This document shows, piece after piece, positions 16,531 through 42,556 of a stretch of DNA of 53,674 nucleotides; within the stretch, counting starts at the first letter, position 1, and every line of letters begins with the position of its first letter. The stretch lies in contig CAYJQO010000001.1 in NCBI GenBank assembly GCA_964372445.1, positions 1 to 53,674 of the forward strand, in the 5' to 3' direction. The notes beneath the pieces were generated by a model. It was given only the letters and a program-made list of their open reading frames with translations, ran no database searches and had not been told where the DNA came from. A program made the translations under genes and the position numbers. This stretch comes from an uncultured Candidatus Saccharibacteria bacterium. Lineage in GTDB: Bacteria > Patescibacteriota > Minisyncoccia > UBA6257 > GWB1-50-10.

Positions 16531-18000
16531 ATGACGGCACAGCGAATCCGCACCTTCCTCTTCCACAACACATCGCTCTTCCAGACCGTCGTCAAGAACA
16601 CGTTCTGGGTGAGCATGGGGCAGGTCATCGGGCGCCTCCTCCGGGCGCTCCTCATCATCTACGCCGCTCGCCTGCTCGGCGCCGCCGGCTACGGCGTGTT
16701 CTCGTACGCGCTGAGCCTCGCCGGTTTCTTCTCCATCTTCTCCGACATCGGCCTCACACCGCTCCTCACCCGCGAAGGGGCAAAGAATCCGGAGCTCATG
16801 GTGAAATACGTCGGGACCGGGTTCACCATCAAGCTGGGGTTGATTGCGGTAAACTCTGTGATCATCCTCTCGGCGCTGCCACTGCTCTCGCACATCGCGG
16901 AAGCAAACGCGCTCTTCCCGCTGATTGCCCTGCTCTTTGCCTTTGACAGCGTGCGTGACTTCACCTTCGCCATTACCAGGGCAATCGAGAAGATGCAGAT
17001 CGAGGCCGGGGCCTTCATGCTCACCAACGTTACCATTCTGGCCTTAGGCTTCGCGGCGCTCTTCCTCTTCCCCAACGTCCGGGCGCTCCTGGTAGCCTAC
17101 ACCATCGGGAGCGGCATCGGCATGGTGTTCGCGGTGTGGAAGGTTCGCGCGTACCTCGCCCGGTTCTGGCGTGCGTTCGACCGCAACCTCATCCGCCCCA
17201 TACTCACCGAGGCCTGGCCGTTCGGCGTCTCTGGTCTCCTGAGTGCCATTATGCTCTCCACCGACACCATCATGATCGGGTGGCTCCGCAGCACCGAAGA
17301 GATCGGCTTCTACGGAGCCGCTCAGCGCATGATTCTTCTCCTCTACCTCCTCCCCGGATTCATTGGGGTCGCCACCTTCCCGGCGCTCTCGCGGCTCTCC
17401 GCAGTCGACCGGGAGCGGTTCGGAGCGGTGTTCGGTAAGACCATGCGTGTAGCGCTCCTCATGGCGGTGCCGCTCACGGTGGGTGGCATCCTGGTTGCCC
17501 CCGAACTCGTTCGGTTCATCTTCGGCGCAAGCTACGACGCGGCCGCGCCAGTGTTCCAGGTGCTGCTCCTCACCGTCACGTTAACCTTCCCGGGCATGCT
17601 CATCGGGAACGCCCTCTTCGCGTTCGGTAAGCAGTGGTACCTGGTACGGTCGTTTGCCCTGGGCGCCATCGGGAACGTACTACTGAACTATGCGTTCATA
17701 CCGCGGTACGGCATCGTCGGTGCCGCCGTGGCAACCGTCATCACCCAAGGACTCACCACCGCGGCCAATACCTACATAATGCAGCGTACCCACCGGTTCC
17801 GGTTCTTCGCCGGGCTCTCTAGGTTGCTCGTGGCTGCCGCCGCGATGGCAGCTACGGTCCTCGTGGCGAGGGCGACGGGAGCGCACGTGCTCCTCACGGT
17901 TGCCGCTGGCGGCGCCGCGTACCTAGGTACGCTCTACCTCACCGGCGAATCACTCATCGCCACCGTCGCAGAGCGCTTTCGGAACAGCACCAACGAATAG
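16531..18000 (+). CDS. Oligosaccharide/polysaccharide flippase (Wzx-type, MOP superfamily)
   Basis: 489 aa with roughly 12-14 hydrophobic segments and a typical Wzx N-terminus. Confidence 0.85.
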   Translation: MTAQRIRTFLFHNTSLFQTVVKNTFWVSMGQVIGRLLRALLIIYAARLLGAAGYGVFSYALSLAGFFSIFSDIGLTPLLTREGAKNPELMVKYVGTGFTIKLGLIAVNSVIILSALPLLSHIAEANALFPLIALLFAFDSVRDFTFAITRAIEKMQIEAGAFMLTNVTILALGFAALFLFPNVRALLVAYTIGSGIGMVFAVWKVRAYLARFWRAFDRNLIRPILTEAWPFGVSGLLSAIMLSTDTIMIGWLRSTEEIGFYGAAQRMILLLYLLPGFIGVATFPALSRLSAVDRERFGAVFGKTMRVALLMAVPLTVGGILVAPELVRFIFGASYDAAAPVFQVLLLTVTLTFPGMLIGNALFAFGKQWYLVRSFALGAIGNVLLNYAFIPRYGIVGAAVATVITQGLTTAANTYIMQRTHRFRFFAGLSRLLVAAAAMAATVLVARATGAHVLLTVAAGGAAYLGTLYLTGESLIATVAERFRNSTNE

Positions 18001-18004
18001 CTGA

Positions 18005-18589
18005 TTACTGCACCGGCAAGTTCTCCGGCCAGTAGGTGAGAATTTCCTGGAGCACTTCGAGTGCTTTACTATTTTCGCCGCGCTCACGGTAGACGCTGTA
18101 GAGCCCGTAGAGAAACTGCGGCCGGCGCGGGCTCCGCGCAAGACCTTGCACGTAGTAAGCTTCTGCTTTCCCGAGCGACGCGGCGTCGCGGTACGTCACC
18201 CCGAACTCTTCCCACGCCTGCCCCAAGAACAGCATAAGCTGCGTGGTGTTCACGCGGGGGTTACGCGCGATCAGCTCTTGGTACCTGCCCTCGGCGTACT
18301 CGATGAGCGCGCGAGCCGCCCACTCAGGCGGGTTCCGGCGCACGATGTTCCCGATCTCATTGGTCATGAAACGGACCTCCTCGGCCTGGCCCACAGGCGA
18401 GGGGTAGTCAAGGGCGCGGTCAAATACCGCCTTGAAATCCTCGATACGCTTCGTCTCCGGGGACGAGAGGGCTCGGTACGCCTGGATGAACTGTCTCGAT
18501 TTCTCGAACGGGGCGTACGAACCGACGTAGAGGGCAAAGAGGGCAACCCCAATCCCGATGATGAGCAACCCTTTCCTAAGCATGTGCAT
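18005..18589 (-). CDS. Membrane-anchored TPR-like protein, homologous to the C-terminal half of ORF 36515..38929
   Basis: One TM segment, then a helical-repeat region. Its ATG sits in ATGCTTAG, overlapping the stop of the upstream ligase-like gene. The track start at 18622 is TTG. Confidence 0.6.
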   Translation of the reverse strand: MHMLRKGLLIIGIGVALFALYVGSYAPFEKSRQFIQAYRALSSPETKRIEDFKAVFDRALDYPSPVGQAEEVRFMTNEIGNIVRRNPPEWAARALIEYAEGRYQELIARNPRVNTTQLMLFLGQAWEEFGVTYRDAASLGKAEAYYVQGLARSPRRPQFLYGLYSVYRERGENSKALEVLQEILTYWPENLPVQ

Positions 18590-19937
18590 GGGAACGTTCA
18601 AAAAGGTACGCCGCAAAGGCAAGGAAGAGGAACAGGTTCAGGTAGATTGGCAGGACGTCGAAGATCACCAAACCCTGCGTGAGGTACGCAACCGGTAGCG
18701 AGAAAATGAGGGCGTGCTGCACGCGCGAGTGATGCTCGCCCTCACCGAGACCGTTCGCAAATTTTCGCAACTCAAGGAAGAACACCACGAACACGGAAAG
18801 GAACGCGAGGAGGCCGAGCATGCCCGTTTCCGCAAGGTAGTCCAGGAACAGGTTGTGCGCCCGGTCATACCAGGTCTCGGACTGCTCCCCGGGGATGTAG
18901 TGCCTCGGATCGAAGTGCCGGTCGAATACCACCGAAAAGTTCTCAGGGCCCCAGCCGAGGAGGGGGCGCTCCCTCGCCCCGGCAACCGCCGAACCCCATG
19001 TCCAGAGCCGACTCTGGAAGCTCGAGCTCCCCAGGCCGAGGTTGAAAATCCGGGCGCCGGGGAGCTGCCGAACGAACGGGGTATCGTGGAAGTAGACGAG
19101 CGAGCTGACCGCAATGGTAAGCACCATGAGAGCCGGCGCCGCATACCGGCGCCACCTTCCGCCACGGCTGAGGGAAATGTAGAAGAGGAAAGCCCAGACG
19201 CCGGCCAGCAACCCGAATACCGAACCGCGCGTCTGGGAGAGCCAGGTAACCACCACGAAAAGAGCTGAGAGTATGTAGAGCGCTACGCGTCCTTCGACGC
19301 GGCGAACCTTCGGAAGGAGGTAGCAGAGAAAAAACAAGATGAAGAGCAGGTAGCTGCCCACGTACGCTGCGTTCCCGAGCGATCCCTGGAAGCGGAGCGA
19401 CGAGTTCAGGACCGCCCTGAGCGGAGGCCCGACGAACCCTTGGACCCCCATGCCCGCGAGCACGCCGTAGAGCACCATGAGGATACCGGCCGTGATGGAA
19501 ATCCAGAACATCCGCCGCCAGGCCGCCACATCCTTCATGAGCAGCCGCAGAAGTAAGAAGAAGAGGTAGAAGTGGAGGATTTGGTAGCCGCCCTCACCCC
19601 GCTCGAAGTTTGACCAGAACGCGAGGGAAGGATCGTAGCCGAAGAGGGACGCGAGGAGCACGACGAGCATGAAAATGGAAACCGCAACCGTGAGGGGTGA
19701 TCGGAAGAGCGCCCGGAGCGACTCGCCCCAGCGACGCTGCTCCTCATCTGACGCTACCAGGAGACCGATGAGGAACGCGGCGAGCGCGAGGTCAACCACG
19801 GAACGGAAGAAGGCGTACTTGACAACAATGAACGGGAAGAGGGTCGCCCCGCTCACCAGGATCACCGAAAGGGGGGCTAGGTAGAGGAAGAAACGCGAAA
19901 CTTGATAAAACTTCATGGGTTCGGCATACTGTTGCAT
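18576..19937 (-). CDS. O-antigen ligase-like (Wzy_C domain) membrane protein
   Basis: Polytopic membrane protein with LLGWGPENF...YDRAHNLFLDYLAETGMLG, typical of Wzy_C. Start at ATG 19937 or 19916. The longer track ORF overlaps the divergent dehydrogenase gene. Confidence 0.8.
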   Translation of the reverse strand: MQQYAEPMKFYQVSRFFLYLAPLSVILVSGATLFPFIVVKYAFFRSVVDLALAAFLIGLLVASDEEQRRWGESLRALFRSPLTVAVSIFMLVVLLASLFGYDPSLAFWSNFERGEGGYQILHFYLFFLLLRLLMKDVAAWRRMFWISITAGILMVLYGVLAGMGVQGFVGPPLRAVLNSSLRFQGSLGNAAYVGSYLLFILFFLCYLLPKVRRVEGRVALYILSALFVVVTWLSQTRGSVFGLLAGVWAFLFYISLSRGGRWRRYAAPALMVLTIAVSSLVYFHDTPFVRQLPGARIFNLGLGSSSFQSRLWTWGSAVAGARERPLLGWGPENFSVVFDRHFDPRHYIPGEQSETWYDRAHNLFLDYLAETGMLGLLAFLSVFVVFFLELRKFANGLGEGEHHSRVQHALIFSLPVAYLTQGLVIFDVLPIYLNLFLFLAFAAYLFERSHAHA

Positions 19938-19943
19938 ACTACC

Positions 19944-21215
19944 ATGCTCAAGAAGAACGTGAAAACGACCGTTGCCATCGTTGGCGTTGGCTACATCGGC
20001 TTCCCCACCGCAATCGCAATGGCGAAAGCCGGCGCGCGGGTAATCGGCATCGATATCAGCCGTGACCGCGTCAGGGCCATCAACCGAGGGAAAAGTATTA
20101 TGAAGGAAATCCCCGACGAAGAGCTCCACGCTGTGTCGAAACGGTTCACCGCAACAACCGATTGGAAGAAGGTTCGACCGTGCAGCGTGATTCTGATCGC
20201 CGTCCCCACGCCGCTCACCAAGAACAAAACTCCGGACACCACCGCCATTGAACGCGCGGGAGCAAAAATCGCAAAGTTCATGAGGCGCGGCACGCTCGTC
20301 ATCCTCGAGAGCACCTCGTACCCCGGCACGACCGAAGAGGTACTCCAACCGATTCTTGAGAAAGGTGGCCTCGTCGCCGGCAAGGATTTCTACCTCGCCT
20401 TTGCTTCAGAGCGTTTCGATCCCGGGAACAAGGAGTACCGCCTGACCGACATTCCCAAGGTGGTGGGCGGCATTAATAGAACGTCGACGGAGAAAGCAAC
20501 GGCGTTCTATAAACGGTTCTACCACCAGGTTCACCCAGTCTCCTCGCCGCGGAACGCCGAGATGGCGAAGCTTCTCGAGAACATCTTCCGCCTCGTAAAT
20601 ATCTCCCTTGTAAATGAGCTCAAGATGATCGCTGATAAAATGGGGGTCGACTTCTGGGAAGCGATCGAGGCCGCGAAGACCAAACCCTACGGTTTCATGC
20701 CGTTCTACCCGGGTCCGGGAGTGGGTGGGCACTGCATTCCCCTCGACCCGTTCTTCCTCGCGTGGAAAGCGCGCGAACACAACTTCTTCATGCGATTCAT
20801 CCACCTCGCCGGGGAAATCAACGAGCTCATGCCGCACTACGTCGTGACGAGAATTGCTACCGAGCTCAACCGCAAGCGGAAATCGATCAATGGCTCCACC
20901 ATCCTCCTTCTGGGCGCGGCGTACAAAAAAGATATCGACGACCACCGAGAATCCCCCGCGCTTGACATCATGTGGGACCTTACGAGGAAAGGTGGAAACG
21001 TGCTCTACAACGACCCACACATCCCTACGCTCCGCATTAAGGATACAACCTTCACCTCGGCGTCGCTCACCTCCGACCTCGTGAAGAAAACGGACTGCGT
21101 CGTCATCCTCACCGATCACTCCGCCTACGACTACCGCATGATCGCCAAGCACGCCAAACTCGTCATCGATACCAGAAACGCCATTAAACAGAAACTGCCG
21201 ACCGTCTTCGCGTAG
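19944..21215 (+). CDS. UDP-N-acetyl-hexosamine 6-dehydrogenase (WbpA/WecC/TviB-type nucleotide-sugar dehydrogenase)
   Basis: VAIVGVGYIGFP Rossmann motif, ESTSYPGTT, GGHCIPLDP catalytic Cys motif. Confidence 0.9.
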   Translation: MLKKNVKTTVAIVGVGYIGFPTAIAMAKAGARVIGIDISRDRVRAINRGKSIMKEIPDEELHAVSKRFTATTDWKKVRPCSVILIAVPTPLTKNKTPDTTAIERAGAKIAKFMRRGTLVILESTSYPGTTEEVLQPILEKGGLVAGKDFYLAFASERFDPGNKEYRLTDIPKVVGGINRTSTEKATAFYKRFYHQVHPVSSPRNAEMAKLLENIFRLVNISLVNELKMIADKMGVDFWEAIEAAKTKPYGFMPFYPGPGVGGHCIPLDPFFLAWKAREHNFFMRFIHLAGEINELMPHYVVTRIATELNRKRKSINGSTILLLGAAYKKDIDDHRESPALDIMWDLTRKGGNVLYNDPHIPTLRIKDTTFTSASLTSDLVKKTDCVVILTDHSAYDYRMIAKHAKLVIDTRNAIKQKLPTVFA

Positions 21216-21223
21216 CGCTCGGT

Positions 21224-22054
21224 ATGCGGTTCCTCCTCATCGGCACCGGTTTCATCATGCCGCGGCACGTAGAGGCAATCTACCGCGTCGGCGGCAAGTT
21301 GGTTGATCTCGTGAATACCGCCCACGGCGAGGACACCTGGCGCGAGGTGATACTGCGCACGAAAGCCAGCCATGTCATCATCGCTACCCCAAACGATCTC
21401 CACTTTCCCATGGCCATGGCAGCCGCCGAGGCTGGCAAGGTGGTGCTCTGCGAGAAACCCCTTGCGCTTACCTCCAACGACGTGCGATTGCTTGCCACCA
21501 AACCAAATATTTTCACCGTGCTCCAGCTCCGCCACCACCCGCTCGCCAAGAAGCTCAGGTCTGAAATCAACCATCGTGAGCGGTACGACGTTGAGATGGA
21601 TATCTCAAACTACCGCGACGATCGCTACTACCGGAGCTGGAAAGCGGACACCCGCCGGTCCGGCGGCATTCTCTTCAACCTCGGCTCTCACTACTTCGAT
21701 ATGCTCATTCACCTCTTCGGCTACCCCACCGAGATCGTTGAAACTGCCGGCAACGATCGGACCATGCATGGCACGCTCCGGGGAGAGCGCTACACCTGCC
21801 GCTGGCGGGTTTCGAGCGAGGCGAAGCAAGGCGAGCAGCACCGGACCTACACGATCAACGGTGTCAATTGTAATTTTTCCTCCCGGGAGAACCTATCGCA
21901 GGAGCAGCTCCACGCTGACGTCTACCGGGATCTCATGGAGGGCCGCGGGGTCACGCCCGCTGACGCTCTGTACTCGACGCGCCTCATCGAGACCATCTAC
22001 AAGCGTGTGCCCTTGACAAGCCACGTGCAACCACCTATAACGAGCACAGCGTAA
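21224..22054 (+). CDS. Gfo/Idh/MocA-family oxidoreductase (WbpB-like)
   Basis: N-terminal Rossmann fold and CEKPLA motif. Position within a WbpA/B/D/E-like gene set. Confidence 0.8.
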   Translation: MRFLLIGTGFIMPRHVEAIYRVGGKLVDLVNTAHGEDTWREVILRTKASHVIIATPNDLHFPMAMAAAEAGKVVLCEKPLALTSNDVRLLATKPNIFTVLQLRHHPLAKKLRSEINHRERYDVEMDISNYRDDRYYRSWKADTRRSGGILFNLGSHYFDMLIHLFGYPTEIVETAGNDRTMHGTLRGERYTCRWRVSSEAKQGEQHRTYTINGVNCNFSSRENLSQEQLHADVYRDLMEGRGVTPADALYSTRLIETIYKRVPLTSHVQPPITSTA

Positions 22055-22093
22055 CTGAAACGAGTGAATATTAATAATTGAAAGGGGCACACG

Positions 22094-22513
22094 TTGAAAA
22101 CGGGTATCAACACGGTGGTGTACCACCCGGAGCTCTCGAACATTGGCAGCGGCGCGGTAATCGGCGATGGCTCGAGGATCCACTCTCACGTTTGGATCGG
22201 TGACACGGTGCGGATCGGCAAGAACTGCAAGGTTGAGGCCTTTGCGTTCATCCCAAACGGGGTAACGATCGAGAACAATGTGTTCATTGGGCCACATGTT
22301 TGCTTTACCAACGACAAGCACCCGCCGTCCCACGGGAAAGGCTGGAGTGAGACGGTCGTACGGCGTGGCGCCAAGATCGGCGCGAACGCCACCATCCTAC
22401 CGGGGATTACCATCGGTGAACAGGCTATGGTTGGCGCTGGCGCCGTAGTCACGAGCGATGTGCCCGCCCGTGCCACGGTTGTCGGAAACCCAGCACGCCC
22501 TATAATCAAATAG
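22094..22513 (+). CDS. Hexapeptide-repeat (left-handed beta-helix) N-acetyltransferase (WbpD-like)
   Basis: Repeated [LIV]G hexapeptides. TTG start preceded by AAAGGGG. Confidence 0.85.
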   Translation: MKTGINTVVYHPELSNIGSGAVIGDGSRIHSHVWIGDTVRIGKNCKVEAFAFIPNGVTIENNVFIGPHVCFTNDKHPPSHGKGWSETVVRRGAKIGANATILPGITIGEQAMVGAGAVVTSDVPARATVVGNPARPIIK

Positions 22514-22547
22514 GGCGTGTTTTGTTTTGACTCCCTAGCCCACACCT

Positions 22548-26413: not shown

Positions 26414-26430
26414 CCTTCGAAGCCACCGGC

Positions 26431-26598: not shown

Positions 26599-26669
26599 AG
26601 CTGCTGCTAAGCGTACGGAAGATAGACGACGCTTTCAAGACCCAGCCCGCAGGAGAGGAACGAGCACGC

Positions 26670-27500: not shown

Positions 27501-27608
27501 AGATTAGTGGACGCTGGTCAAGTAAGTATACTAGAATGGTACAGCGCAGGTAGCAACGTGTGCACTGCCAATGGTGATGCCACGCCTCGAACAAACGCGG
27601 CGTACCCC

Positions 27609-29545: not shown

Positions 29546-29549
29546 CCAA

Positions 29550-32935: not shown

Positions 32936-33434
32936 AATAGTTCAACAGTCAGATAACCGCCGGGTTTTCATCGACACGCTCTGCGAGCTGGCGGAAAAAG
33001 ACAAGGATATTGTTTTTATCATCCCAGATGTCGGTTTCAACTATGCTGAGAAATTTCAAAAACTCTACCCGGAGCGCTACTTTAATTTTGGCGTGACCGA
33101 AGCCAGTTCAACTATTATTGCCGCTGCTCTCGCCTTGAGCGGCAAGAAGCCCTACCTCTACTCTATGATTAACTTCGTCACGTTCCGGGTGCACGAGATG
33201 GTACGAAATGCTATCTGCATGCATAAGGCAAATGTGAAAATTTTGGGTGTTAGGGGGAGCGAGAAGTACACGTTCCTTGGGTTCAGCCACAACCTCCTCC
33301 GGGAAAACGAGGAAGTGGATTTCCTAGACAAACTTCCGGGGATGAAGACGTACCTCCCGATGAGTCCTGCGGAGACAAGGGCAGCAATACTGAAATCGTA
33401 CGGGGAACCTAACCCTGCCTACATTCGACTCTGA
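32928..33434 (+). CDS. Transketolase pyrimidine-binding subunit, short form (no C-terminal domain)
   Basis: 168 aa with FNFGVTEAS and an ending of ...PAYIRL. It overlaps the upstream subunit by 8 nt. Usual C-terminal subunits are about 300 aa (established knowledge). Confidence 0.8.
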   Translation: MAEIVQQSDNRRVFIDTLCELAEKDKDIVFIIPDVGFNYAEKFQKLYPERYFNFGVTEASSTIIAAALALSGKKPYLYSMINFVTFRVHEMVRNAICMHKANVKILGVRGSEKYTFLGFSHNLLRENEEVDFLDKLPGMKTYLPMSPAETRAAILKSYGEPNPAYIRL

Positions 33435-33439
33435 CGAAC

Positions 33440-34561: not shown

Positions 34562-34601
34562 CCGCCGGGCGTCCGCGGAGGTTGACGGTCGGAAGCTGCT
34601 A

Positions 34602-36514: not shown

Positions 36515-38929
36515 CTAGAGCGTGTCAAGTATCTCCCAGTTCTGCTTCCTGGCGAGGTCAGTCAGCACATCCATTTGGTCGGCGAGCGACGGGTCGATGC
36601 GCTTCAAGGCCTCGGCGTGACGGATAACCCCGTCGGCATCGCGCAGGCTCCGATACACTATGATCGCGTCGTACCGGTAGTCCTTGTTCGTGGGGTGGAA
36701 CCAGGTCAAAACCTCAAGGAGATCCACCATTTTCTCTGGCTCCCCCAGCGTCCGGTACATCACGACCATGTTCTTGAGGTCACTCTCGAGGAACAGGTAG
36801 TACTGGGTGTTCGTGAGGTCACTCCCCTGGTAGGCCACGTCGCGGCCGAGCTCTTTCCGACCCCACTCCCGCGCAAGGTCAAGCTCTTGCTCCGCCTCGG
36901 CGCGGTAGGTCGCCTGCTCTGGTGTCCCCTGGTGCTGATCGGAGTCAGCGGCGAGGAGCAAGGCAACCCCAAGAAGGTAGTGCGCCTTGGCTGACCTCGG
37001 CTCGAGGGCAAGCGCCTGGCGCACCACCGCAATGGATTCTTCATGCTTTCCCTCTCCAGAGAGCGCAAACGAGAGCAGGTAGCGGAGCGCCTGCCGGTCC
37101 GGTGAGAGGGCGAGCGCCCGCCGCGCAAACGCTTCGGACCGAGGGAAAATGGACGGATCATCCTTGGCCCGCTCGTTGTACGCCTCGACGAGGCGGGTGA
37201 AGTTCCTCGGCTCATAGGGTTCACGATTCACCACCTCTTCAAGCGCATCGAGGGAACGGTTCACGAGCGGGTCAAACTTTTTGTTCGTGAGGAGGCCGCC
37301 GCTGTACATGAGCTCCACAAACTTCGCACGGATCTCCATCTGCGCAAAGTTGTACGGGGTGAGGAAGGTATCCGCCGCGGCGAAGATTCTTTGTCCGACA
37401 CGTGTTTTAATGGCAGCGCCGAACGCCGACGCCTGGTAGGCAGGTAGGTAGTTCCACGTGTAGAGCGAGTAGCCGATGGCGACGGCGACGAGTACCGCTG
37501 CCGGCGCGGCAACCCACCGGTAGCGCGTGGCGTGAGGCGCTGGGCCGCCGCTGTCCGGTGCCGACGAAGCCGCAGCGCCTTCCTCCGCTGCCACCACGAG
37601 ACCAAGCAGGGTAAAGAAGAGCACGTAGGAGGTAATCTGGTCGAAGAGGAACAGGTTCTGCACGAAGTGCGCCACCGTGACGGCGATCAGGATCGGCGCG
37701 GAGAGCGCTACGGCCGCACGGAGACCCGGCCCTGCGGCGGCAACGCCATCACGCGCGCGGCGTGCGAGCAGAGCGAGCGAGCGGAACAACGCAACGAACA
37801 TCCCCAGGAAGGCGAGGAGACCGAATACCCCCTGCGTCACGAGCACGTCAACGAGCCGGTTGTGCGCCCGGTCGAACCAGTCTTCGGCGAAGTACGAGTA
37901 GAGGGGATCGAAGTGCCGGTTGTAGGCGATGTTGAAGTTTTCCATGCCCCAGCCGAGGATCGGGCGCTCCTGCCATGCCGAGAAACCAACCTTGAGCGCG
38001 ATGAGGCGTGTCACCACGGAGGGATTCGTGAGGGACACACTGGTGAGACGTCCGAAGCCGGGCACCTTGAGCCAGAGCGGTGAGGCGCGCGTGAGCAAAA
38101 ACCCGACTACCAAAACCACGAGCCCGGCGAGGACTATGGCACCAGCGAGGCGCACCCGGCGGGCGCCGCGCCAAACCAGGTAGATGGCAAGGACAAGCGC
38201 CCCCGCAGCAAGCCCGATGATGGCACCACGAACTGCGGTTATAAAAATGGTGGCAACCGAGGCTCCAGCGGTCGCAAGCGACGCATACCACCAGAAGCTC
38301 CGCCGTGGTGAGCTCCAGTAAACAATCGCCGTGACTCCGAGGAGGAGAATGAGGTACTCCGCGAGGTAGGCAGGGTTCCCGGAGAACGATCCCGGCTGCG
38401 AGGCGGGGGCGAGCGCGAACGGAAACTTGGTCACCAGGAAGTACTGGAGCCAGGCGTAGAGTATAGAGACCCACCCAACCACGAGCGAAATTTTAAAGAA
38501 CCGCAGCCAGTCCTTCCCGGTAAAGAGGAGGAGCGCGAGCACGAGGAAGATAAGGTAGTGGATTACCCCGTAGAGCCCTTCTCCTCGCTCGAGGTCGCCG
38601 AAGAATGCCCGGTAGGCATTGGTGGCCAGGACGGAGGAGATGGCAGCGGAGACAAGGAAAAGCACGACGAACCTGAGGAGAAGGTTCTTGCTGAGCCGAC
38701 GGGGCGCGATACCGGGCAGGGCGCCCACCAAGGTCGCTCGGCCTCGGAGTGCCAGGGCAATATAGACGCTAAAGAGGAGGAGGGAGATCTCAAGAACGCT
38801 CCGGTAGAAAAGGGCTTTCGGGAACACAAAGGGTGCAAGGAAGAGCGAGCTGCTCGTCACGAGCGGCGTAGCGGCAAAGAGGAAGAGGAGTACCACTATG
38901 ACGGTACGCAAGCCGGAGAGCGGTTTCAT
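36515..38929 (-). CDS. O-antigen ligase-like (Wzy_C) membrane domain fused to a C-terminal TPR domain
   Basis: 804 aa. PILGWGMENF...FDRAHNRLVDVLVTQGVFG is the Wzy_C motif. The C-terminus has TPR-like repeats (ALALSPDRQALRYLL..., ALALEPRSAKAHYLLG). It is a paralog of 18576..19937 plus 18005..18589. Confidence 0.8.
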   Translation of the reverse strand: MKPLSGLRTVIVVLLFLFAATPLVTSSSLFLAPFVFPKALFYRSVLEISLLLFSVYIALALRGRATLVGALPGIAPRRLSKNLLLRFVVLFLVSAAISSVLATNAYRAFFGDLERGEGLYGVIHYLIFLVLALLLFTGKDWLRFFKISLVVGWVSILYAWLQYFLVTKFPFALAPASQPGSFSGNPAYLAEYLILLLGVTAIVYWSSPRRSFWWYASLATAGASVATIFITAVRGAIIGLAAGALVLAIYLVWRGARRVRLAGAIVLAGLVVLVVGFLLTRASPLWLKVPGFGRLTSVSLTNPSVVTRLIALKVGFSAWQERPILGWGMENFNIAYNRHFDPLYSYFAEDWFDRAHNRLVDVLVTQGVFGLLAFLGMFVALFRSLALLARRARDGVAAAGPGLRAAVALSAPILIAVTVAHFVQNLFLFDQITSYVLFFTLLGLVVAAEEGAAASSAPDSGGPAPHATRYRWVAAPAAVLVAVAIGYSLYTWNYLPAYQASAFGAAIKTRVGQRIFAAADTFLTPYNFAQMEIRAKFVELMYSGGLLTNKKFDPLVNRSLDALEEVVNREPYEPRNFTRLVEAYNERAKDDPSIFPRSEAFARRALALSPDRQALRYLLSFALSGEGKHEESIAVVRQALALEPRSAKAHYLLGVALLLAADSDQHQGTPEQATYRAEAEQELDLAREWGRKELGRDVAYQGSDLTNTQYYLFLESDLKNMVVMYRTLGEPEKMVDLLEVLTWFHPTNKDYRYDAIIVYRSLRDADGVIRHAEALKRIDPSLADQMDVLTDLARKQNWEILDTL

Positions 38930-39000
38930 GATGGATAAGCCAGTAGCCTACTCAATGGTAGAAGATTCCTCACCCATCCACAACGGAGAGCCCTGGGACA

Positions 39001-39034
39001 GCAAAAACAAAGCCCCGCCCGAAGGCGGGGCTTT
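39001..39034 (-). terminator. Intrinsic terminator downstream of the surface-protein gene
   Basis: 11-bp stem AAAGCCCCGCC/GGCGGGGCTTT with loop CGAA, followed on the minus strand by TTGTTTTTGC. Confidence 0.75.
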
Positions 39035-39052
39035 GCTAGCTCTCAAGGAATG

Positions 39053-42000
39053 CTAGTTCTGACGAGTGAAGATGTCAGACGGGTAGGTATCCACGTAGAC
39101 ACCGTTCGCCCAGTCGGCTGTCGTCAACGCGTGTGCCGTTGCCGAGTTGTCGGACCAGACGAAACCAGAGTCAGCGTCGTCAACCACCGCGTCGCCACCA
39201 GCGCTGCCGGTGGCTCTCGCCGTTGCATACGCTACACCCTTCGTGATCGAAGCCGTGGAGGTGTCCTGTCGGAGCACCAACTGCGTCGAAACCGACGAGT
39301 TGCTCCCCGGGGCGATCACGCTGCCGGTAATCTTGTACTCCCTCGAGGCACCCGCAGGAATGACTTCCTCGGTGCCGAGGTAGAACGTGTAGTTACCAGC
39401 CGTTGGGGCGCCTGCCGTCGCGGTCGTCGTGATCGTGAGGTTTACGCTGTTCGTCATGTCGCGGAGCGTAAAGGTTGCAGCCGGGTCAAATGCACCGCTT
39501 ACCTTGAACAACGGTACCGTTGCCGCTGCCGCGCTCACATTGAAGCTCACGACGTTCCACGAGATCTGCTCGTTCGAGCTCTTGTTCGTCACGGTGAACT
39601 TGATGAGGTCGTTCGAGCCATTCGTCAAGACCGTGCCGCCAGGCGAGGCCACGGTAATCCCTGGGTAGGTCTTGTAGAGAACCTTCAGGTTACCCTTGGC
39701 GCCACCGGCCGAGCCGACATCGTAGATCGTGGAGGCAGAACCGGTCGCCTCGAAGCCATCAGCGGCTACGGCTCCGTCCTTGAAGTGGACGTAGACCGAG
39801 CGGCCAGAGGTCGCGCCGCTTGCGATCGTGTTCGTGTCCGCCTTCACCGTCAGGGTCTTCGTGCCGTCCTTCGGGACCACCAAGCCGAGGTCTTCAATCA
39901 CGACATCCCCCGCTGCCGAACCCGAGCCGATGGGGGTGTACCCAGCGGTTGAGCCGATCTGCGTCGAGCCGTCGTAGAGGTAGACCTTCGTCACCTCCGC
40001 GGTTGAGGTCGCCGAGGCTGCGGTCGAGGAATCGTTGTTGACCAAGAGTTTCATTTTCTTGATCGTCAGAGCCTCGTTGGCCGCGGTGATGCGGAACTTG
40101 CCGAGGACCGTCTTCGAGGCACTCGTCGTTATGATCCCGGCCTTGCTCTCGACGTCGTCCGGCGCCGTCGCAATCGTGATCGTGCCGGCCGAGAGAACGG
40201 TGATCACCCGATCGGCAAGCATGTTCAACCCGGGGCCGTTGAATGAGCTGGTGTAGGTCGGCTCGTTGCCTTCCGAGTCAACCGCCACGATATCGCTCCC
40301 CGCCGTGTTCGAGGTCGTCGCCACACGGATACCGATCGAGTACGTGTTGTTGCTTGTCGCTGAGACCGAGAGGTTGCCCTTCAGGACAAGGGTCTTGCTC
40401 TGGCCCTTCGCGATCACGAAGCTTAGGTTCGAGAACGTGGCATCCGCACTAGAGGCGTTAAACGTGGCCAGCGACTTAATGTCGGAGATCCGCGTGTCGC
40501 CGTCGTAGAGCGCGAAGTTCTGGAGGTCCGCAATCGCCATGGCATCGGTCTGGCCCGTTGAAGCCGACGTTGAGGTGACCTTGATCGTGGTCACCTTGAT
40601 GTCGTCCGCGATGGCCCGGAGCCCGATACCCACGAAGGGCACCGCCTGCGTCCCCTTCACGAAGCTCTGCGAGGCCGGGTTACCAGCCAAGCTAAGCTCG
40701 AGGGTCGGCGCCTTCACGGTCTGGGTGTTGCCCTGGAGGGCCGTCGAAGGCGTGATCTCTGCCGCCACCAGGAACTGGTTGTTATCCAAGTTCTTGACGT
40801 CAGCGCTCGCCGCAAACGCGGTGAGGGTGACGCGGATGGCGTCGCTGTTGTCCCAGTCGGTCGGGATGTCCGCGGTCATCTTGAACGTCCGGGTCTGGCC
40901 CGCGTTCACGTTGAAGATGTCCGTGAAGTTCACCCCGGTGACCGCATCAATGTTCGCGATCGTCACGTCCGAGGGACCCGCGACGGTTACCCCCGTCGCC
41001 TCATCCACCACCTTGAAGTCGGTGAGCTGGCTGTCGCCGATGAGCGATCCAGCGGTCGTCGCGATCGAGGCGTGGAGCTTCCTGACCTCAACGTTGTTCG
41101 CGGCAGCCATCGAGAAGCGGTAGAGGACCTGGTCCTTGCCGTTCTTCTTAATGTCGCCCGTGTTGGGGCCGAGGAAAGTCGTGGTTAGGGTCGCGCCCTG
41201 GATGGTGAGGACGTGGTGGTTCGCAGCGGTCGAGTCCATGGTCTTCGTGACCGTGGCACCCTGGCCGTACTGCTGCCCCACGCCGTAGACGTCGTTCGCC
41301 TCATCGATGTAGAGGGCGATCGTGTCGTTGCGCTTCGCCGCCCCACCGATGCTAGCCAGGACCTTGAAGTCCTTGCTGTCACCCTTGAGGATGGTCACGG
41401 GGCTCGCGAGGTCGAAGACAATGAGATCCTTCGCGTTCACCCCGGAGGCGGTCGCGAGCGTGTTGCCCGCGAGGTCCTGCAAGACGAAGGTTGTGAGGTT
41501 CGACTTGGAGGTTGTGCCACCCGAGAACATCGCAATGCGTGAGATTTTAATGTCCTCGTTCGCGGTGGTGAGCTTGAACTGCGAAACCGCGGCGCCCGGC
41601 TGCCCGATGTTCGGGTTGCCAAGGCTCCCAGACTTCGCAATCGTGAGCGTTCCGGATGTGGCCGCAGAGACGGTCATCTCCTTACCCGTGACCGGGAGGC
41701 CGGTGACTGCCACGTCGGCATTCACCGCCGTCACCGAGAAGGCGTTCCGGCCAGCCGCTCCCGCGCCAGCCGCCATATCCGCGATCACCGAGAGCATCTT
41801 CACGCCGCTCACCGCCAGGTTCAACCCGGTAAAGGTCGCCTCGTGCGATGAGGTGTTGACCGATCGGCCGGAAGTCAAACGGACCGGGCCGTCGTAGAGG
41901 TAGACGTTCGAGAAATCGGTCGCCTGACCGGCACCGACGCGCTTGACCGTCACCGTGTTCACGGTACCGCTCCCCGCCAAGTTGAACTTGGTGTAGGTAA

Positions 42001-42556
42001 CGTTCCCGGCACCCTTCGGAACGGCGTTCTCACCGGGCGTGTCCGAGGCAAGGCTCGCCGCGAGACCGGTCGCTGGGATCGGTACGGGCGAGGGCCCTGG
42101 CCCGGGCGCTGGTGACATTGCCGCAATGGCCGCGCGCGTCTTCGGTCCGAAGTAGCCAACGGCGGGAGAAATGCCATTCGCCGCCTGCCACTTCGCGAGA
42201 GCCGCTGCCGTCTTGGAGCCAAAGTAGGTTGACTCGCTGCCAGGCGATCCGGGGCCGCTCGCGGCTACCGGGTAGCCCTTGGCGTTAAGCCACTGCTGGA
42301 GGGCTTTCACCTCCGCCCCCTTGCTACCCAATGTGAGGTTTTGGGTGAACGTGGTGGCTGGGGCTGGGCTGCCCTGCGCAACAGAGAGCTGTGCCTGGAG
42401 CGACTGGATCATGGTGAGGAGCTGCGCGATCTGCGCCTGGAGCTCCTCGGTCGTTGCAGCCGAAGCTGCTGGAATAATCATGGTAGCACCGGAGAGCCAC
42501 ACCGCCATGGTGACGGAGAGCCCCACCGATGCAATTTTTCTTGCTACGGTATTCAT
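39053..42556 (-). CDS. Large secreted cell-surface protein: signal peptide, coiled-coil, peptidoglycan-binding domain, then tandem beta-rich repeat domains (S-layer-like)
   Basis: 1167 aa. Signal peptide ends ...AASA|ATTEE. PG_binding_1-like segment: LGSKGAEVKALQQWLNAKGY...GSKTAAALAKWQAANG. After that come about 7-8 divergent ~120-130-aa modules sharing the pattern V.L.KF.LTA..E...I..I, YLYDG, F..L...I.KG..K.L.VK. Confidence 0.85.
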   Translation of the reverse strand: MNTVARKIASVGLSVTMAVWLSGATMIIPAASAATTEELQAQIAQLLTMIQSLQAQLSVAQGSPAPATTFTQNLTLGSKGAEVKALQQWLNAKGYPVAASGPGSPGSESTYFGSKTAAALAKWQAANGISPAVGYFGPKTRAAIAAMSPAPGPGPSPVPIPATGLAASLASDTPGENAVPKGAGNVTYTKFNLAGSGTVNTVTVKRVGAGQATDFSNVYLYDGPVRLTSGRSVNTSSHEATFTGLNLAVSGVKMLSVIADMAAGAGAAGRNAFSVTAVNADVAVTGLPVTGKEMTVSAATSGTLTIAKSGSLGNPNIGQPGAAVSQFKLTTANEDIKISRIAMFSGGTTSKSNLTTFVLQDLAGNTLATASGVNAKDLIVFDLASPVTILKGDSKDFKVLASIGGAAKRNDTIALYIDEANDVYGVGQQYGQGATVTKTMDSTAANHHVLTIQGATLTTTFLGPNTGDIKKNGKDQVLYRFSMAAANNVEVRKLHASIATTAGSLIGDSQLTDFKVVDEATGVTVAGPSDVTIANIDAVTGVNFTDIFNVNAGQTRTFKMTADIPTDWDNSDAIRVTLTAFAASADVKNLDNNQFLVAAEITPSTALQGNTQTVKAPTLELSLAGNPASQSFVKGTQAVPFVGIGLRAIADDIKVTTIKVTSTSASTGQTDAMAIADLQNFALYDGDTRISDIKSLATFNASSADATFSNLSFVIAKGQSKTLVLKGNLSVSATSNNTYSIGIRVATTSNTAGSDIVAVDSEGNEPTYTSSFNGPGLNMLADRVITVLSAGTITIATAPDDVESKAGIITTSASKTVLGKFRITAANEALTIKKMKLLVNNDSSTAASATSTAEVTKVYLYDGSTQIGSTAGYTPIGSGSAAGDVVIEDLGLVVPKDGTKTLTVKADTNTIASGATSGRSVYVHFKDGAVAADGFEATGSASTIYDVGSAGGAKGNLKVLYKTYPGITVASPGGTVLTNGSNDLIKFTVTNKSSNEQISWNVVSFNVSAAAATVPLFKVSGAFDPAATFTLRDMTNSVNLTITTTATAGAPTAGNYTFYLGTEEVIPAGASREYKITGSVIAPGSNSSVSTQLVLRQDTSTASITKGVAYATARATGSAGGDAVVDDADSGFVWSDNSATAHALTTADWANGVYVDTYPSDIFTRQN

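What the first reader, a model, noticed from the sequence alone, without database searches (positions are those of the whole stretch)
16531..42556. Glycan island bracketed by Wzy_C/TPR paralogs next to a giant PG-binding surface protein: candidate surface-protein O-glycosylation (slg-like) system
The island contains everything needed for a lipid-linked heteroglycan. It has an initiating PglC-type phosphoglycosyl transferase (31452), NDP-sugar modification modules, three glycosyltransferases, several methyltransferases and a Wzx flippase (16531). There is no Wzz, ABC exporter, LptD/outer-membrane component or obvious teichoic-acid ligase. Instead there are two O-antigen-ligase-like Wzy_C proteins. 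Wzy_C domains are also the catalytic domain of protein O-oligosaccharyltransferases (PglL/PilO, and the S-layer OTases WsaB/WsfB). The fused Wzy_C-TPR gene (36515-38929) lies directly downstream of a 1167-aa Ser/Thr-rich secreted repeat protein. Pilus genes are also nearby. The glycan may therefore be transferred to a protein (an S-layer-like protein or pilins) rather than to lipid A.
Basis: inference. Interest (0 to 1): 0.7.

Follow-up and report, generated by a model that had tools for sequence, protein, structure and literature searches.

The report
Candidate surface-protein glycosylation locus in Parcubacteria
An ultra-small, uncultured bacterium (Parcubacteria, candidate phyla radiation) carries a sugar-chain assembly island beside a large wall-anchored surface protein and two ligase-like membrane enzymes, an arrangement kept in many relatives that most likely sugar-coats that protein, though no experiment shows it yet.

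Summary
Window 16.5-42.6 kb holds a Wzx flippase, a small PglC-type initiating transferase, two NDP-sugar modification modules, three glycosyltransferases and three methyltransferases. It also holds two paralogous Wzy_C proteins, each with a TPR partner: one fused (804 aa), one split (453 aa plus about 194 aa). A 1167-aa secreted protein with a peptidoglycan-binding domain lies directly upstream of the fused gene. The contig belongs to Parcubacteria, a group reported to lack LPS, so a WaaL role is very unlikely.

New evidence partly supports the protein-glycosylation reading. The pair "large surface protein then Wzy_C-TPR" is conserved in about 20 species-level genomes, while the flanking sugar genes change. 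Three of three surface-protein homologs chosen without regard to neighbours have the enzyme directly downstream. The TPR domain is predicted to lie outside the membrane. The fused/split architecture matches the S-layer O-oligosaccharyltransferases WsfB and WsaA/WsaB. A relative sits in an ABC-transporter-type locus, where no polymerase is needed. Distant homologs sit next to other secreted proteins.

The fold (WaaL-like) cannot separate ligase from polymerase, and nothing shows glycosylation directly. I rate it a new member of a known kind in an unstudied phylum, confidence about 0.5.

The parts
16531..18000 (+). Wzx/MOP-family flippase for the lipid-linked glycan
   Evidence: Pfam Polysacc_synt 126 bits, Polysacc_synt_3 86 bits. 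Only weak NCBIfam hits to Wzx_EPS/MOP flippase models, below their cut-offs.
18005..18589 (-). TPR_B: one TM helix plus an extracytoplasmic TPR domain, the separately encoded partner of Wzy_C paralog B
   Evidence: TPR_14/16/19 hits. Colinear with residues 480-646 of the fused paralog. Its ATG overlaps the stop of paralog B by 14 nt. The same split pair recurs in L012, L013, L014, L017, L064, L090 and L091.
18576..19937 (-). Wzy_C paralog B (about 453 aa, 12 TM): second ligase-like enzyme, either an O-OTase or a Wzy polymerase
   Evidence: Pfam Wzy_C 55.7 bits against a cut-off of 31.7. 30% identical to paralog A, E 2e-36.
19902..23669 (+). Module of NDP-sugar dehydrogenase, GFO/MocA oxidoreductase, NeuD/PglB/VioB-type acetyltransferase and DegT aminotransferase. 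The gene set resembles WbpA/B/D/E, which makes a 2,3-diacetamido uronic acid.
   Evidence: TIGR03026 424 bits, above its cut-off. GFO_IDH_MocA and DegT 388 bits. TIGR03570 80 bits, below its cut-off. The pathway assignment is an inference from gene content.
23666..30332 (.). Glycan elongation and decoration genes: GT2, GT4, GT2(-), three SAM methyltransferases and a class I aminotransferase
   Evidence: Pfam hits. AspAT-like NCBIfam hits for 28253-29545.
31452..32051 (+). Small monotopic PglC-type phosphoglycosyl transferase, the initiating enzyme
   Evidence: Bac_transf 199 bits; 199 aa covering only the catalytic domain.
32159..36500 (+). Split transketolase-like pair, DegT aminotransferase and a membrane PglF/CapD-type UDP-GlcNAc 4,6-dehydratase. 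These would supply a 4-amino-4,6-dideoxy-HexNAc-type (bacillosamine-like) or further modified sugar.
   Evidence: Pfam hits and NCBIfam PseB/FnlA-like and PseC/ArnB-like hits below equivalog cut-offs. The module is conserved next to the Wzy_C-TPR gene in L001, L003, L004, L007, L008, L018 and L089.
36515..38929 (-). Wzy_C-TPR paralog A (804 aa): 12-TM WaaL-fold domain, a 13th TM helix and an extracytoplasmic TPR superhelix of about 300 aa. Proposed O-oligosaccharyltransferase.
   Evidence: Wzy_C 65 bits plus TPR hits. AF2 model pLDDT 92, pTM 0.89. Best PDB fold match is WaaL 7TPG, TM-score 0.68 normalised to the target. Invariant R115, R308, D353, R354 and H356 across 38 homologs. Conserved position downstream of the large surface protein.
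39006..39037 (-). Strong intrinsic terminator between the surface-protein gene and the Wzy_C-TPR gene
   Evidence: 14-bp stem with 9 GC pairs, a tetraloop and a U tract. Intergenic fold z = -3.5. An equivalent hairpin is present in 19 of 19 orthologous intergenic regions.
39053..42556 (-). 1167-aa secreted, PG-anchored protein made of Ig-like domains. Candidate S-layer-like structural protein and proposed glycan acceptor.
   Evidence: PG_binding_1 44.6 bits. 21.8% Ser+Thr and no Cys. AF2 model shows a signal peptide, coiled coil, PG-binding domain and a chain of all-beta domains. 343 homologs, most of those listed 1130-1180 aa long, one with SLH in place of PG_binding_1.
43061..43873 (-). Conserved multi-TM protein of about 250 aa with unknown function, always between clpB and the surface-protein gene. 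Whether it belongs to the system is uncertain.
   Evidence: No Pfam or NCBIfam hit. Same position in L001, L003, L005, L088, L089, L090 and L091.

Best explanation
This is a surface-protein O-glycosylation locus of a monoderm-like Parcubacteria cell, analogous to the S-layer glycosylation (slg) loci of Firmicutes.

Proposed steps:
1. The small PglC-type transferase starts a glycan on a polyprenyl phosphate with a 4-amino-4,6-dideoxy-HexNAc-type sugar. The PglF-like dehydratase and DegT aminotransferase supply that sugar.
2. Three glycosyltransferases extend the glycan. One added sugar is probably a diacetamido-uronic acid from the WbpA/B/D/E-like module. Three methyltransferases decorate the chain.
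3. Wzx flips the lipid-linked glycan to the outer face of the membrane.
4. The WaaL-fold Wzy_C domain of the 804-aa enzyme transfers the glycan en bloc to Ser/Thr/Tyr residues of the 1167-aa PG-anchored protein encoded directly upstream. The enzyme's extracytoplasmic TPR domain holds this abundant Ig-repeat protein.
5. The split paralog (Wzy_C B plus TPR_B) is either a second transferase with a different glycan or site specificity, or the polymerase that lengthens the glycan before transfer.

Shown here: gene content, fold, the conserved catalytic His/Arg positions and the conserved gene pair. The extracytoplasmic location of the TPR domain is a prediction from the model and the positive-inside rule. 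Inferred: the sugar identities, the acceptor, and which paralog does what.
For: 1. Complete pathway for a lipid-linked heteroglycan.
2. No LPS acceptor is plausible. All close homologs are Parcubacteria/Patescibacteria, and CPR bacteria are reported to lack lipid A/LPS synthesis (PMC10221324).
3. Conserved gene pair. A homolog of the large protein lies directly upstream, on the same strand, of the Wzy_C-TPR ortholog in L001, L004, L005, L007-L014, L016-L018, L034, L043, L053, L064 and L070.
4. Reverse test.
5. The neighbouring sugar genes differ between these loci: PglF/DegT/transketolase/PGT in the window, GDP-mannose-type genes in L005, AsnB/TylF-type genes in L090 and L091. Enzyme A still stays 34-55% identical. 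This fits a transferase tied to its acceptor better than a repeat-unit-specific polymerase.
6. AF2 model with pLDDT 92. Helix order and the positive-inside rule place the catalytic loop (invariant H356) and the TPR domain on the outer face.
7. The same fused/split Wzy_C+TPR dichotomy is described for the S-layer O-OTases WsfB (fused) and WsaA+WsaB (split) (PMC2943079).
8. A family member (P0043, 31% identity) is fused to a PG_binding_1 ectodomain. Its locus has a separate TPR gene, an ABC-2 transporter pair and a GT-methyltransferase, which is the type of pathway that needs no Wzy polymerase.
9. In nine distant CPR loci examined, the gene directly downstream of the Wzy_C-TPR homolog encodes a protein with a signal-peptide-like N-terminus. 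Five are S8 subtilases with FG-GAP repeats. Four belong to another family, two of which have TIG-domain hits.
10. Adjacency of substrate and enzyme genes is documented for the TfpO, TfpM and PglS O-OTases (PMC12645811).
11. The large protein looks like an abundant structural surface protein. It is rich in Ser/Thr and has no Cys. Family length is nearly constant, and a homolog carries an SLH anchor instead. A strong terminator follows the gene in 19 of 19 loci. Cryo-EM of a Parcubacteria member shows an apparent S-layer (10.1101/2022.04.20.488981).
Against: - There is no direct evidence of a glycoprotein.
- Wzy_C/WaaL-fold membership is shared by ligases, O-OTases and some Wzy polymerases, so neither the Pfam hit nor the fold match discriminates.
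- The PglL-specific domains are absent.
- The locus uses Wzx and has no other polymerase candidate, so at least one paralog could be Wzy.
- A strong terminator separates the large-protein gene from the enzyme gene, so they are not a simple operon.
- The linkage decays for distant large-protein homologs. P0143 stands alone, and P0169 is followed by a TPR protein and glycosyltransferases but no Wzy_C within 8 kb.
- S-layer genes also cluster with wall-polysaccharide genes in Firmicutes (own knowledge), so adjacency is not proof.
- Codon bias of the large-protein gene is not exceptional.
Confidence: 0.5

Rival explanations
1. This is a cell-wall or capsular heteropolysaccharide locus of the Wzx/Wzy type. 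One or both Wzy_C-TPR proteins are Wzy polymerases, and the external TPR domain acts as a chain-length or export scaffold. The polymer is attached to the wall by an enzyme encoded elsewhere, or stays lipid-linked. The large PG-binding protein is only a neighbour, as S-layer genes often are to wall-polymer genes.
For: - Wzx is present and no other multi-TM polymerase candidate exists in the island.
- Pfam Wzy_C also covers polymerases (own knowledge), and the WaaL-like fold is not discriminating.
- Many distant homologs sit next to the initiating transferase, without the large protein.
- TPR domains are known polysaccharide-export scaffolds, and there are weak PgaA/PilW-type TPR hits.
- A terminator separates the large-protein gene from the enzyme gene.
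Against: - Enzyme A stays conserved and stays next to the large-protein gene while the sugar genes change. Polymerases usually track the repeat unit.
- A family member lies in an ABC-transporter-type locus, where no polymerase is needed.
- I know of no described Wzy polymerase with a fused or partnered TPR domain (own knowledge), whereas S-layer O-OTases have one (PMC2943079).
- No LCP ligase or Wzz/PCP gene is in the window.
Confidence: 0.3
2. The Wzy_C-TPR enzymes are ligases that transfer the flipped glycan to a non-protein acceptor of the monoderm envelope, either peptidoglycan or a membrane glycolipid. They would functionally replace LCP-type ligases.
For: - WaaL fold with the conserved Arg/His set for an Und-PP-linked donor.
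- A PG_binding_1 domain is fused to a family member (P0043), which would place the enzyme at the wall.
- No LCP gene is in the window.
Against: - I know of no precedent for a Wzy_C-family enzyme ligating to peptidoglycan (own knowledge).
- TPR domains typically bind proteins.
- The recurrent adjacency to genes for different secreted proteins is not explained.
Confidence: 0.13
3. This is a classical LPS O-antigen locus, with WaaL ligating the O-antigen to lipid A-core.
For: The source annotation 'O-antigen ligase' on homologs and the best PDB fold match, WaaL 7TPG.
Against: - The contig is Parcubacteria/CPR by all close homologs, and CPR bacteria are reported to lack lipid A/LPS pathways (PMC10221324).
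- No Lpt, Lpx or Waa genes are in the 53.7 kb window.
- The extra TM helix and TPR domain are not WaaL features.
Confidence: 0.02

Closest known systems
S-layer glycosylation (slg) loci of Paenibacillus alvei (WsfB) and Geobacillus stearothermophilus (WsaA/WsaB)
   Same: - Monoderm-type envelope.
- A polyprenyl-linked glycan started by a phosphoglycosyl transferase.
- A Wzy_C-domain transferase with a C-terminal TPR (WsfB) or an adjacent small TPR protein (WsaA+WsaB). These are the two architectures seen here (PMC2943079).
- Methyltransferases in the cluster.
- An AsnB homolog follows the enzymes in L090 and L091, and wsfA of P. alvei is also an AsnB homolog (PMC2943079).
   Different: - The acceptor candidate is anchored by PG_binding_1, not SLH, and is built of Ig-like domains. 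S-layer lattice formation is unproven.
- Two paralogous Wzy_C+TPR sets are conserved together.
- The organism is a CPR bacterium.
- Direct sequence relatedness to WsfB/WsaB was not tested.
- According to PMC2943079, wsfB in P. alvei is transcribed on its own and slg clusters have no preferred chromosomal site. Here the enzyme gene lies directly downstream of the candidate target gene.
TfpO/PilO, TfpM and PglS pilin O-oligosaccharyltransferases
   Same: Wzy_C-only enzymes that lack the PglL_A and Wzy_C_2 domains (true of TfpO and TfpM). They are encoded next to their dedicated substrate gene (PMC12645811). Here the enzyme gene directly follows a highly conserved structural surface-protein gene.
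   Different: The proposed substrate is a 1167-aa wall-anchored protein, not a pilin. The enzyme carries an extra TM helix and a TPR domain of about 300 aa. The host is monoderm-like.
PglL general O-oligosaccharyltransferase (Neisseria, Burkholderia, Acinetobacter)
   Same: En bloc transfer from an Und-PP-linked donor by a Wzy_C domain. The upstream PglF/PglE/PglC-like sugar module resembles the bacillosamine-type pgl pathway.
   Different: The PglL_A and Wzy_C_2 domains are absent even at E <= 10. There is tight linkage to one candidate substrate rather than to none.
WaaL O-antigen ligase (structure 7TPG)
   Same: Best structural match of the 12-TM domain, TM-score 0.68 normalised to WaaL. 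Conserved His and Arg residues in the external loops.
   Different: No lipid A-core acceptor is expected in CPR bacteria (PMC10221324). The enzyme has an added 13th TM helix and an external TPR domain. No sequence-level PDB hit was found.

Membership tests
Wzy_C / O-antigen-ligase superfamily (PF04932, WaaL fold) | Pfam Wzy_C match above the gathering score | tested here: met
   65.1 bits (paralog A) and 55.7 bits (paralog B) against a cut-off of 31.7.
Wzy_C / O-antigen-ligase superfamily (PF04932, WaaL fold) | Multi-TM WaaL-like fold with a large external loop carrying a conserved His and Arg residues | tested here: met
   AF2 model pLDDT 92. Top PDB hit is 7TPG WaaL, TM-score 0.68 normalised to the target. 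R115, R308, R354 and H356 are invariant and R234 nearly invariant in 38 homologs.
PglL/PglS-class O-oligosaccharyltransferases | Co-occurrence of PglL_A (PF15864/IPR031726) and Wzy_C_2 (PF11846/IPR021797) with Wzy_C (PMC12645811) | tested here: not met
   Neither domain is reported for either paralog, even at E <= 10.
TfpO/TfpM-class O-oligosaccharyltransferases | Enzyme gene adjacent to its cognate substrate gene (PMC12645811) | tested here: inconclusive
   Adjacency to a conserved surface-protein gene is strong. The neighbour is not a pilin, and its substrate status is unproven.
S-layer glycosylation O-OTases (WsfB; WsaB with WsaA) | Wzy_C domain with a C-terminal TPR, or an adjacent small TPR protein | tested here: met
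   Paralog A has fused TPR hits at residues 600-665, and the model shows helical repeats over 512-803. Paralog B is followed by a gene for a TM+TPR protein of about 194 aa. The architecture rule comes from PMC2943079.
S-layer glycosylation O-OTases (WsfB; WsaB with WsaA) | Located in a cluster with an initiating transferase, glycosyltransferases and a flippase or ABC exporter | tested here: met
   The ABC-transporter variant occurs in L006.
S-layer glycosylation O-OTases (WsfB; WsaB with WsaA) | Direct sequence homology to WsfB/WsaB | not tested
   The WsfB/WsaB sequences could not be obtained with the session's tools.
S-layer glycosylation O-OTases (WsfB; WsaB with WsaA) | The acceptor is a lattice-forming S-layer protein that carries the glycan | not testable with these tools
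   Only indirect signs: composition, an SLH-anchored homolog, a strong conserved terminator, and cryo-EM of a Parcubacteria member showing an apparent S-layer (10.1101/2022.04.20.488981).
WaaL (LPS O-antigen ligase) | A lipid A-core acceptor is present in the organism | not testable with these tools
   The whole genome was not available. The taxon is reported to lack lipid A/LPS synthesis (PMC10221324), and no Lpx/Lpt genes are in the window.
Wzy O-antigen/capsule polymerase | Sequence tracks the repeat-unit structure, and the enzyme is needed only in Wzx-dependent loci | tested here: inconclusive
   Paralog A stays 34-55% identical next to differing sugar gene sets. A relative occurs in an ABC-transporter-type locus. 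This argues against a polymerase role for paralog A, but paralog B is not resolved.

The most novel reading that the evidence does not exclude
The protein family of about 1150 aa (PG_binding_1 plus Ig-like domains) is the so far unidentified S-layer or surface-coat protein of Parcubacteria. The conserved block clpB / TM protein / surface protein / Wzy_C-TPR A / Wzy_C B / TPR_B would then be a lineage-wide machine that glycosylates this protein. More broadly, TPR-coupled Wzy_C enzymes would be the CPR's way of targeting lipid-linked glycans to specific secreted proteins, including subtilase/FG-GAP and TIG-domain proteins in other lineages. This would shape the surface through which these episymbionts meet their hosts.
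Probability: 0.35. Interest if true: 0.75.

Novelty: new member of a known kind. Interest (0 to 1): 0.55.

Why it matters
CPR/Patescibacteria make up a large share of bacterial diversity and live attached to other cells, yet the molecular make-up of their surface is almost unknown. I found no paper in the searchable library that names their S-layer protein or describes protein glycosylation in them. This locus gives a concrete, testable candidate for both. One is a conserved, abundant-looking wall-anchored surface protein. The other is a dedicated pair of ligase-like enzymes with protein-binding TPR domains next to a variable sugar island. If confirmed, it would extend Wzy_C-type protein O-glycosylation to a new super-phylum. 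It would also supply TPR-coupled oligosaccharyltransferases for glycoengineering, and point to the strain-variable glycan coat as a factor in host or phage recognition.

Tried and rejected
- **Sequence search of the TM domain against PDB chains.** No hit even at E <= 10. The full-length profile search returned only TPR proteins among the 60 matches listed.
- **Fold search of the enzyme model.** WaaL 7TPG is the only non-TPR structure among the 50 matches listed, so structure cannot separate ligase, O-OTase and polymerase.
- **Fold search of the surface-protein model.** Only generic Ig-repeat proteins came back (PrgB, complement, integrins) and no known S-layer protein.
- **Internal sequence repeats in the large protein.** None by BLAST at E < 1e-3. 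Only weak domain-level similarity appears.
- **Codon bias as a proxy for high expression.** ENC is 39.0 and GC3 0.82, at the biased end but matched by clpB, wzx and one DegT gene. Inconclusive.
- **Low-complexity Ser/Ala/Pro tails of the PglL-substrate type in other exported proteins of the window.** Only the 144-aa protein 13781-14215 has one. There is no support for a general glycosylation system.
- **Pilins as targets.** I found only a sub-threshold PilM-like hit and no canonical prepilin motif, so I rejected this as a main reading.
- **AONS-like reading of 28253-29545.** I considered this at first and rejected it. The protein is an AspAT-like aminotransferase.
- **ORF 20406-21152(-).** It has no family hit and lies antisense to the dehydrogenase gene, so I treated it as spurious.
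- **Literature searches linking O-antigen ligase or S-layer glycosylation with CPR.** Nothing relevant found.

Full report
**1. What is in the window**

The window has about 60% GC. Outside the finding it carries housekeeping genes: class II ribonucleotide reductase, ftsZ, ftsA, hisS, signal peptidase I, trxB, a DsbA-like gene, clpB, htrA and a NifS-like gene.

The best homologs of both the Wzy_C-TPR protein and the large surface protein come from Parcubacteria/Patescibacteria assemblies. Examples are 'O-antigen ligase [Parcubacteria group bacterium GW2011_GWB1_45_10]' at 52% identity, and Jorgensenbacteria and Liptonbacteria entries.

A scan of one genome per species found at least 555 confirmed relatives of the enzyme. 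The 80 best are almost all labelled as Patescibacteria lineages.

CPR bacteria are reported to lack lipid A/LPS synthesis and to have a Gram-positive-like envelope (PMC10221324).

**2. The observation**

- Wzx (16531-18000).
- A module of NDP-sugar dehydrogenase, GFO oxidoreductase, NeuD/PglB/VioB-type acetyltransferase and DegT (19902-23669).
- GT2, GT4 and GT2.
- Three methyltransferases.
- A 199-aa PglC-type phosphoglycosyl transferase (31452-32051).
- A split transketolase, a second DegT, and a 632-aa membrane PglF/CapD-type dehydratase (32159-36500).

No Wzz, ABC exporter, LCP or Lpt hit was found among the ORFs I scanned.

The two Wzy_C proteins are real paralogs, 30% identical over 431 residues with E 2e-36.
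- Paralog A (36515-38929, minus strand) is fused to a TPR domain.
- Paralog B most likely starts at 19937, not at the mechanical ORF start of 20348. It is followed by a separate gene (18005-18589) for a single TM helix plus TPR. That gene's ATG overlaps the stop codon of B by 14 nt, and its product is colinear with residues 480-646 of A.
- The split is not a sequencing frameshift. The same arrangement (about 450 aa followed by about 200 aa) recurs in L012, L013, L014, L017, L064, L090 and L091.

The 1167-aa protein (39053-42556, minus strand) has a signal peptide, a PG_binding_1 domain, 21.8% Ser+Thr (window mean 11.2%) and no cysteine.

**3. Structure**

The AF2 model of paralog A is confident (pLDDT 92.2, pTM 0.89).
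- Helix order and the positive-inside rule give 12 TM helices.
- A large external loop covers residues 280-357 and ends in the invariant D353-R354-A-H356-N motif.
- A disordered cytoplasmic linker spans 451-470, followed by a 13th TM helix.
- An all-helical TPR superhelix (512-803) then lies on the outer face, on the same side as the catalytic loop.

Across 38 homologs R115, R308, D353, R354 and H356 are invariant, and R234 is nearly invariant.

The only non-TPR structural match listed in the PDB is the O-antigen ligase WaaL (7TPG), with TM-score 0.68 normalised to WaaL. The other matches listed are TPR proteins, including O-GlcNAc transferase and SPINDLY. There is no sequence-level PDB hit for the TM domain.

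The fold therefore places the protein in the WaaL/Wzy_C superfamily. It does not say which acceptor the enzyme uses.

The large protein models as a coiled coil (36-60), a PG-binding domain (70-146), a Pro-rich linker, and then a chain of all-beta Ig-like domains (pLDDT 81). It matches only generic Ig-repeat proteins.

**4. Comparative genomics, the main new evidence**

*(a) Conserved gene pair.* Orthologs of paralog A at 32-55% identity lie directly downstream, on the same strand, of a homolog of the large protein. This holds in L001, L004, L005, L007-L014, L016-L018, L034, L043, L053, L064 and L070.

*(b) Reverse test.* The loci in (a) were chosen through the enzyme, so I ran the test the other way. 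I picked three large-protein homologs (39-43% identity) only for sitting on long contigs. All three have Wzy_C about 100-120 bp downstream. Two of them continue with paralog B, a protein of about 195 aa, and an asparagine-synthase homolog.

*(c) Conserved block.* The block is clpB, a TM protein of about 250 aa, the surface protein, Wzy_C-TPR A, and optionally Wzy_C B with TPR_B. In the window the B pair has moved to the far end of the sugar island, which is why the island looks 'bracketed'.

*(d) Variable sugar genes.* The sugar genes beside the block differ between loci:
- PglF/DegT/transketolase/PGT in the window, L001, L003, L004 and L089.
- GDP-mannose-type enzymes in L005.
- AsnB/TylF-type genes in L090 and L091.

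Paralog A stays conserved throughout.

*(e) A relative in an ABC-transporter-type locus.* P0043 is 31% identical over the TM domain. It carries an N-terminal ectodomain with PG_binding_1 fused to Wzy_C. It is followed by a separate TPR gene and sits with an ABC-2 permease/ATPase pair and a GT-methyltransferase. This is the ABC-transporter type of glycan pathway, which needs no Wzy polymerase, as in the G. stearothermophilus slg cluster (PMC2943079).

*(f) Distant CPR lineages.* There the Wzy_C-TPR homolog lies divergent from a large phosphoglycosyl transferase. In nine loci examined, the gene directly downstream encodes a protein with a signal-peptide-like N-terminus. Five are S8 subtilases with FG-GAP repeats. 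Four belong to another family, two of which have TIG-domain hits.

*(g) Limits of the linkage.* It weakens with distance. P0143 stands alone. P0169 is followed by a TPR protein and glycosyltransferases but no Wzy_C within 8 kb. An SLH-anchored homolog (P0165) has TPR genes nearby on a short contig.

**5. Signs that the large protein is an abundant structural coat protein**

- The family has 343 detected members. Most of those listed are 1130-1180 aa long.
- The anchor module is exchangeable. One homolog has SLH instead of PG_binding_1.
- In L002 a strain variant keeps the C-terminal 550 residues (59% identity) but has a different N-terminal 315 residues, next to an integrase gene.
- A very strong terminator follows the stop codon: a 14-bp stem with 9 GC pairs. 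An equivalent hairpin with a U tract sits at the same place in 19 of 19 orthologous loci.
- About 500 nt of non-coding sequence with a promoter-like site precede the gene.
- Codon bias is at the strong end for the window but is not unique.
- Cryo-EM of a Parcubacteria member (Ca. Nealsonbacteria) showed an apparent S-layer. The authors of that study pointed to PG-binding proteins (10.1101/2022.04.20.488981).

**6. Interpretation**

A lipid A acceptor is implausible. Within known biology, a Wzy_C enzyme in a monoderm-like cell is either a Wzy polymerase or a protein O-oligosaccharyltransferase.

For paralog A these points favour the transferase:
- It is tied to a particular surface-protein gene rather than to particular sugar genes.
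- It has an external protein-binding TPR domain.
- It shows the same fused/split architecture as WsfB and WsaA/WsaB (PMC2943079).
- A relative lies in an ABC-transporter-type locus.
- Homologs elsewhere sit next to other secreted proteins.
- There is a documented precedent for O-OTase genes lying next to their substrate genes (TfpO, TfpM, PglS; PMC12645811).

These points count against it, or are unresolved:
- There is no chemical evidence.
- The enzymes lack the PglL_A and Wzy_C_2 domains, even at E <= 10. They are therefore not PglL-class, although TfpO and TfpM also lack those domains (PMC12645811).
- The locus uses Wzx and shows no other polymerase candidate, so paralog B, or even A, may polymerise.
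- The terminator means the two genes are not simply co-transcribed.
- S-layer genes also cluster with wall-polymer genes in Firmicutes (own knowledge).

My estimates are:
- about 0.5 for the surface-protein glycosylation model, with B as either a second transferase or the polymerase;
- about 0.3 for a pure polysaccharide locus;
- about 0.13 for ligation to peptidoglycan or a lipid;
- about 0.02 for LPS.

**7. Likely glycan (inference from gene content only)**

The reducing-end sugar would be a bacillosamine-like sugar from the PglF-like dehydratase and DegT, placed by the PglC-like transferase. It may be further modified by the conserved split transketolase and the class I aminotransferase.

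A 2,3-diacetamido uronic acid would come from the WbpA/B/D/E-like module. There would be two or three further sugars and O- or N-methyl groups.

None of the equivalog cut-offs are reached, so these sugar identities are tentative.

**8. Novelty and verdict**

The kind of system is known: Wzy_C-type O-glycosylation of an S-layer or surface protein. Homologs are already annotated 'O-antigen ligase family protein'.

I found no description of these points in the searchable literature:
- the system's presence and conservation across Parcubacteria;
- the identity of the candidate coat protein;
- the conserved pair of TPR-coupled paralogs.

I file it as a new member of a known kind. Interest is moderate (0.55), because it makes the composition of the CPR cell surface directly testable.

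Noticed in passing
window 39006-39037 (-); the same intergenic position in L001-L005, L008, L010-L013, L016, L017, L043, L053, L064, L070, L089-L091: A very strong intrinsic terminator (14-bp stem in the window) directly follows the surface-protein gene. It is conserved as a feature in 19 of 19 orthologous loci although its sequence differs. This suggests a highly expressed, separately terminated structural gene with limited read-through into the enzyme gene.
   Followed up: yes
window 43061-43873 (-): A multi-TM protein of about 250-270 aa with no family hit always sits between clpB and the surface-protein gene, and its start overlaps the 3' end of clpB. It holds the same position in L001, L003, L005, L088, L089, L090 and L091. 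Its function is unknown, and it may belong to the surface-protein system.
   Followed up: partly
L002 5390-9885, compared with L001 6355-9885: Two contigs carry an identical Wzy_C-TPR protein but different upstream proteins. L002 has an 859-aa variant that shares only the C-terminal 550 residues (59% identity) with the window protein, and it lies next to a phage-type integrase. This looks like strain-level swapping of the N-terminal (anchor) half of the surface protein.
   Followed up: partly
P0165 (contig listed, no DNA held): A 1470-aa homolog of the surface protein carries an SLH domain instead of PG_binding_1. A second SLH protein and two small TPR proteins lie nearby. This looks like anchor-module exchange of the kind described for S-layer proteins.
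   Followed up: partly
L006 10001-22218: A Wzy_C enzyme (P0043) has a 500-aa N-terminal ectodomain containing PG_binding_1. It is followed by a separate TPR gene and sits in a locus with ABC-2 transporter genes and a 1008-aa GT-FkbM-methyltransferase. The gene set resembles the G. stearothermophilus slg cluster.
   Followed up: partly
L021, L039, L054, L058, L037 (S8+FG-GAP); L026, L029, L030, L044 (TIG-domain family): In distant CPR lineages the Wzy_C-TPR homolog lies divergent from a phosphoglycosyl transferase of about 440 aa. The gene directly downstream encodes a protein with a signal-peptide-like N-terminus: a subtilase with FG-GAP repeats, or a conserved family that in two cases has a TIG-domain hit. 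These may be other dedicated targets.
   Followed up: partly
window 32159-33434 and 28253-29545; L001, L003, L004, L089: A split transketolase-like pair travels with the PglF-like, DegT and PGT genes in the related loci listed. An AspAT-like class I aminotransferase accompanies them in the window, L001 and L003. This hints at an unusual (branched or amino-acid-modified) sugar. This segment also has the lowest GC of the window (0.525-0.557, against about 0.61).
   Followed up: no
window 30405-31307 (-): A 300-aa cytoplasmic ORF on the opposite strand inside the island has no Pfam or NCBIfam hit. By eye its motifs (FGVFDG..., LILFTDG) resemble PP2C/SpoIIE-type phosphatases.
   Followed up: no
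window 11738-14215 (-): A 505-aa protein with a sub-threshold PilM-like N-terminus and a TM segment is followed by two small single-TM proteins. The second (13781-14215) ends in a Ser/Pro/Thr-rich tail (PPEASGSAPTSTGSSPSPLR).
   Followed up: partly
L001/L002 19818-20277: A HicA/HicB toxin-antitoxin pair is inserted inside the orthologous sugar island of a related genome.
   Followed up: no
record titles of L011, L014, L054, L065, L071: Contigs carrying this CPR-type gene are labelled Prolixibacteraceae, Nanoarchaeota, Gammaproteobacteria or Nitrospirota. Many others are labelled 'Saccharibacteria' although their nearest relatives are Parcubacteria. This suggests mis-binning or coarse taxonomic labels in public MAG sets. 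L071 and L083 encode TPR-less versions of about 430-440 aa and may be genuine non-CPR relatives.
   Followed up: no
window 21224-22513 (+): The GFO/MocA oxidoreductase ORF is short (276 aa, and its C-terminal domain matches only partly). The following acetyltransferase ORF (139 aa) matches only the C-terminal part of the NeuD/PglB/VioB model. The genes may be truncated or the starts mis-set.
   Followed up: no
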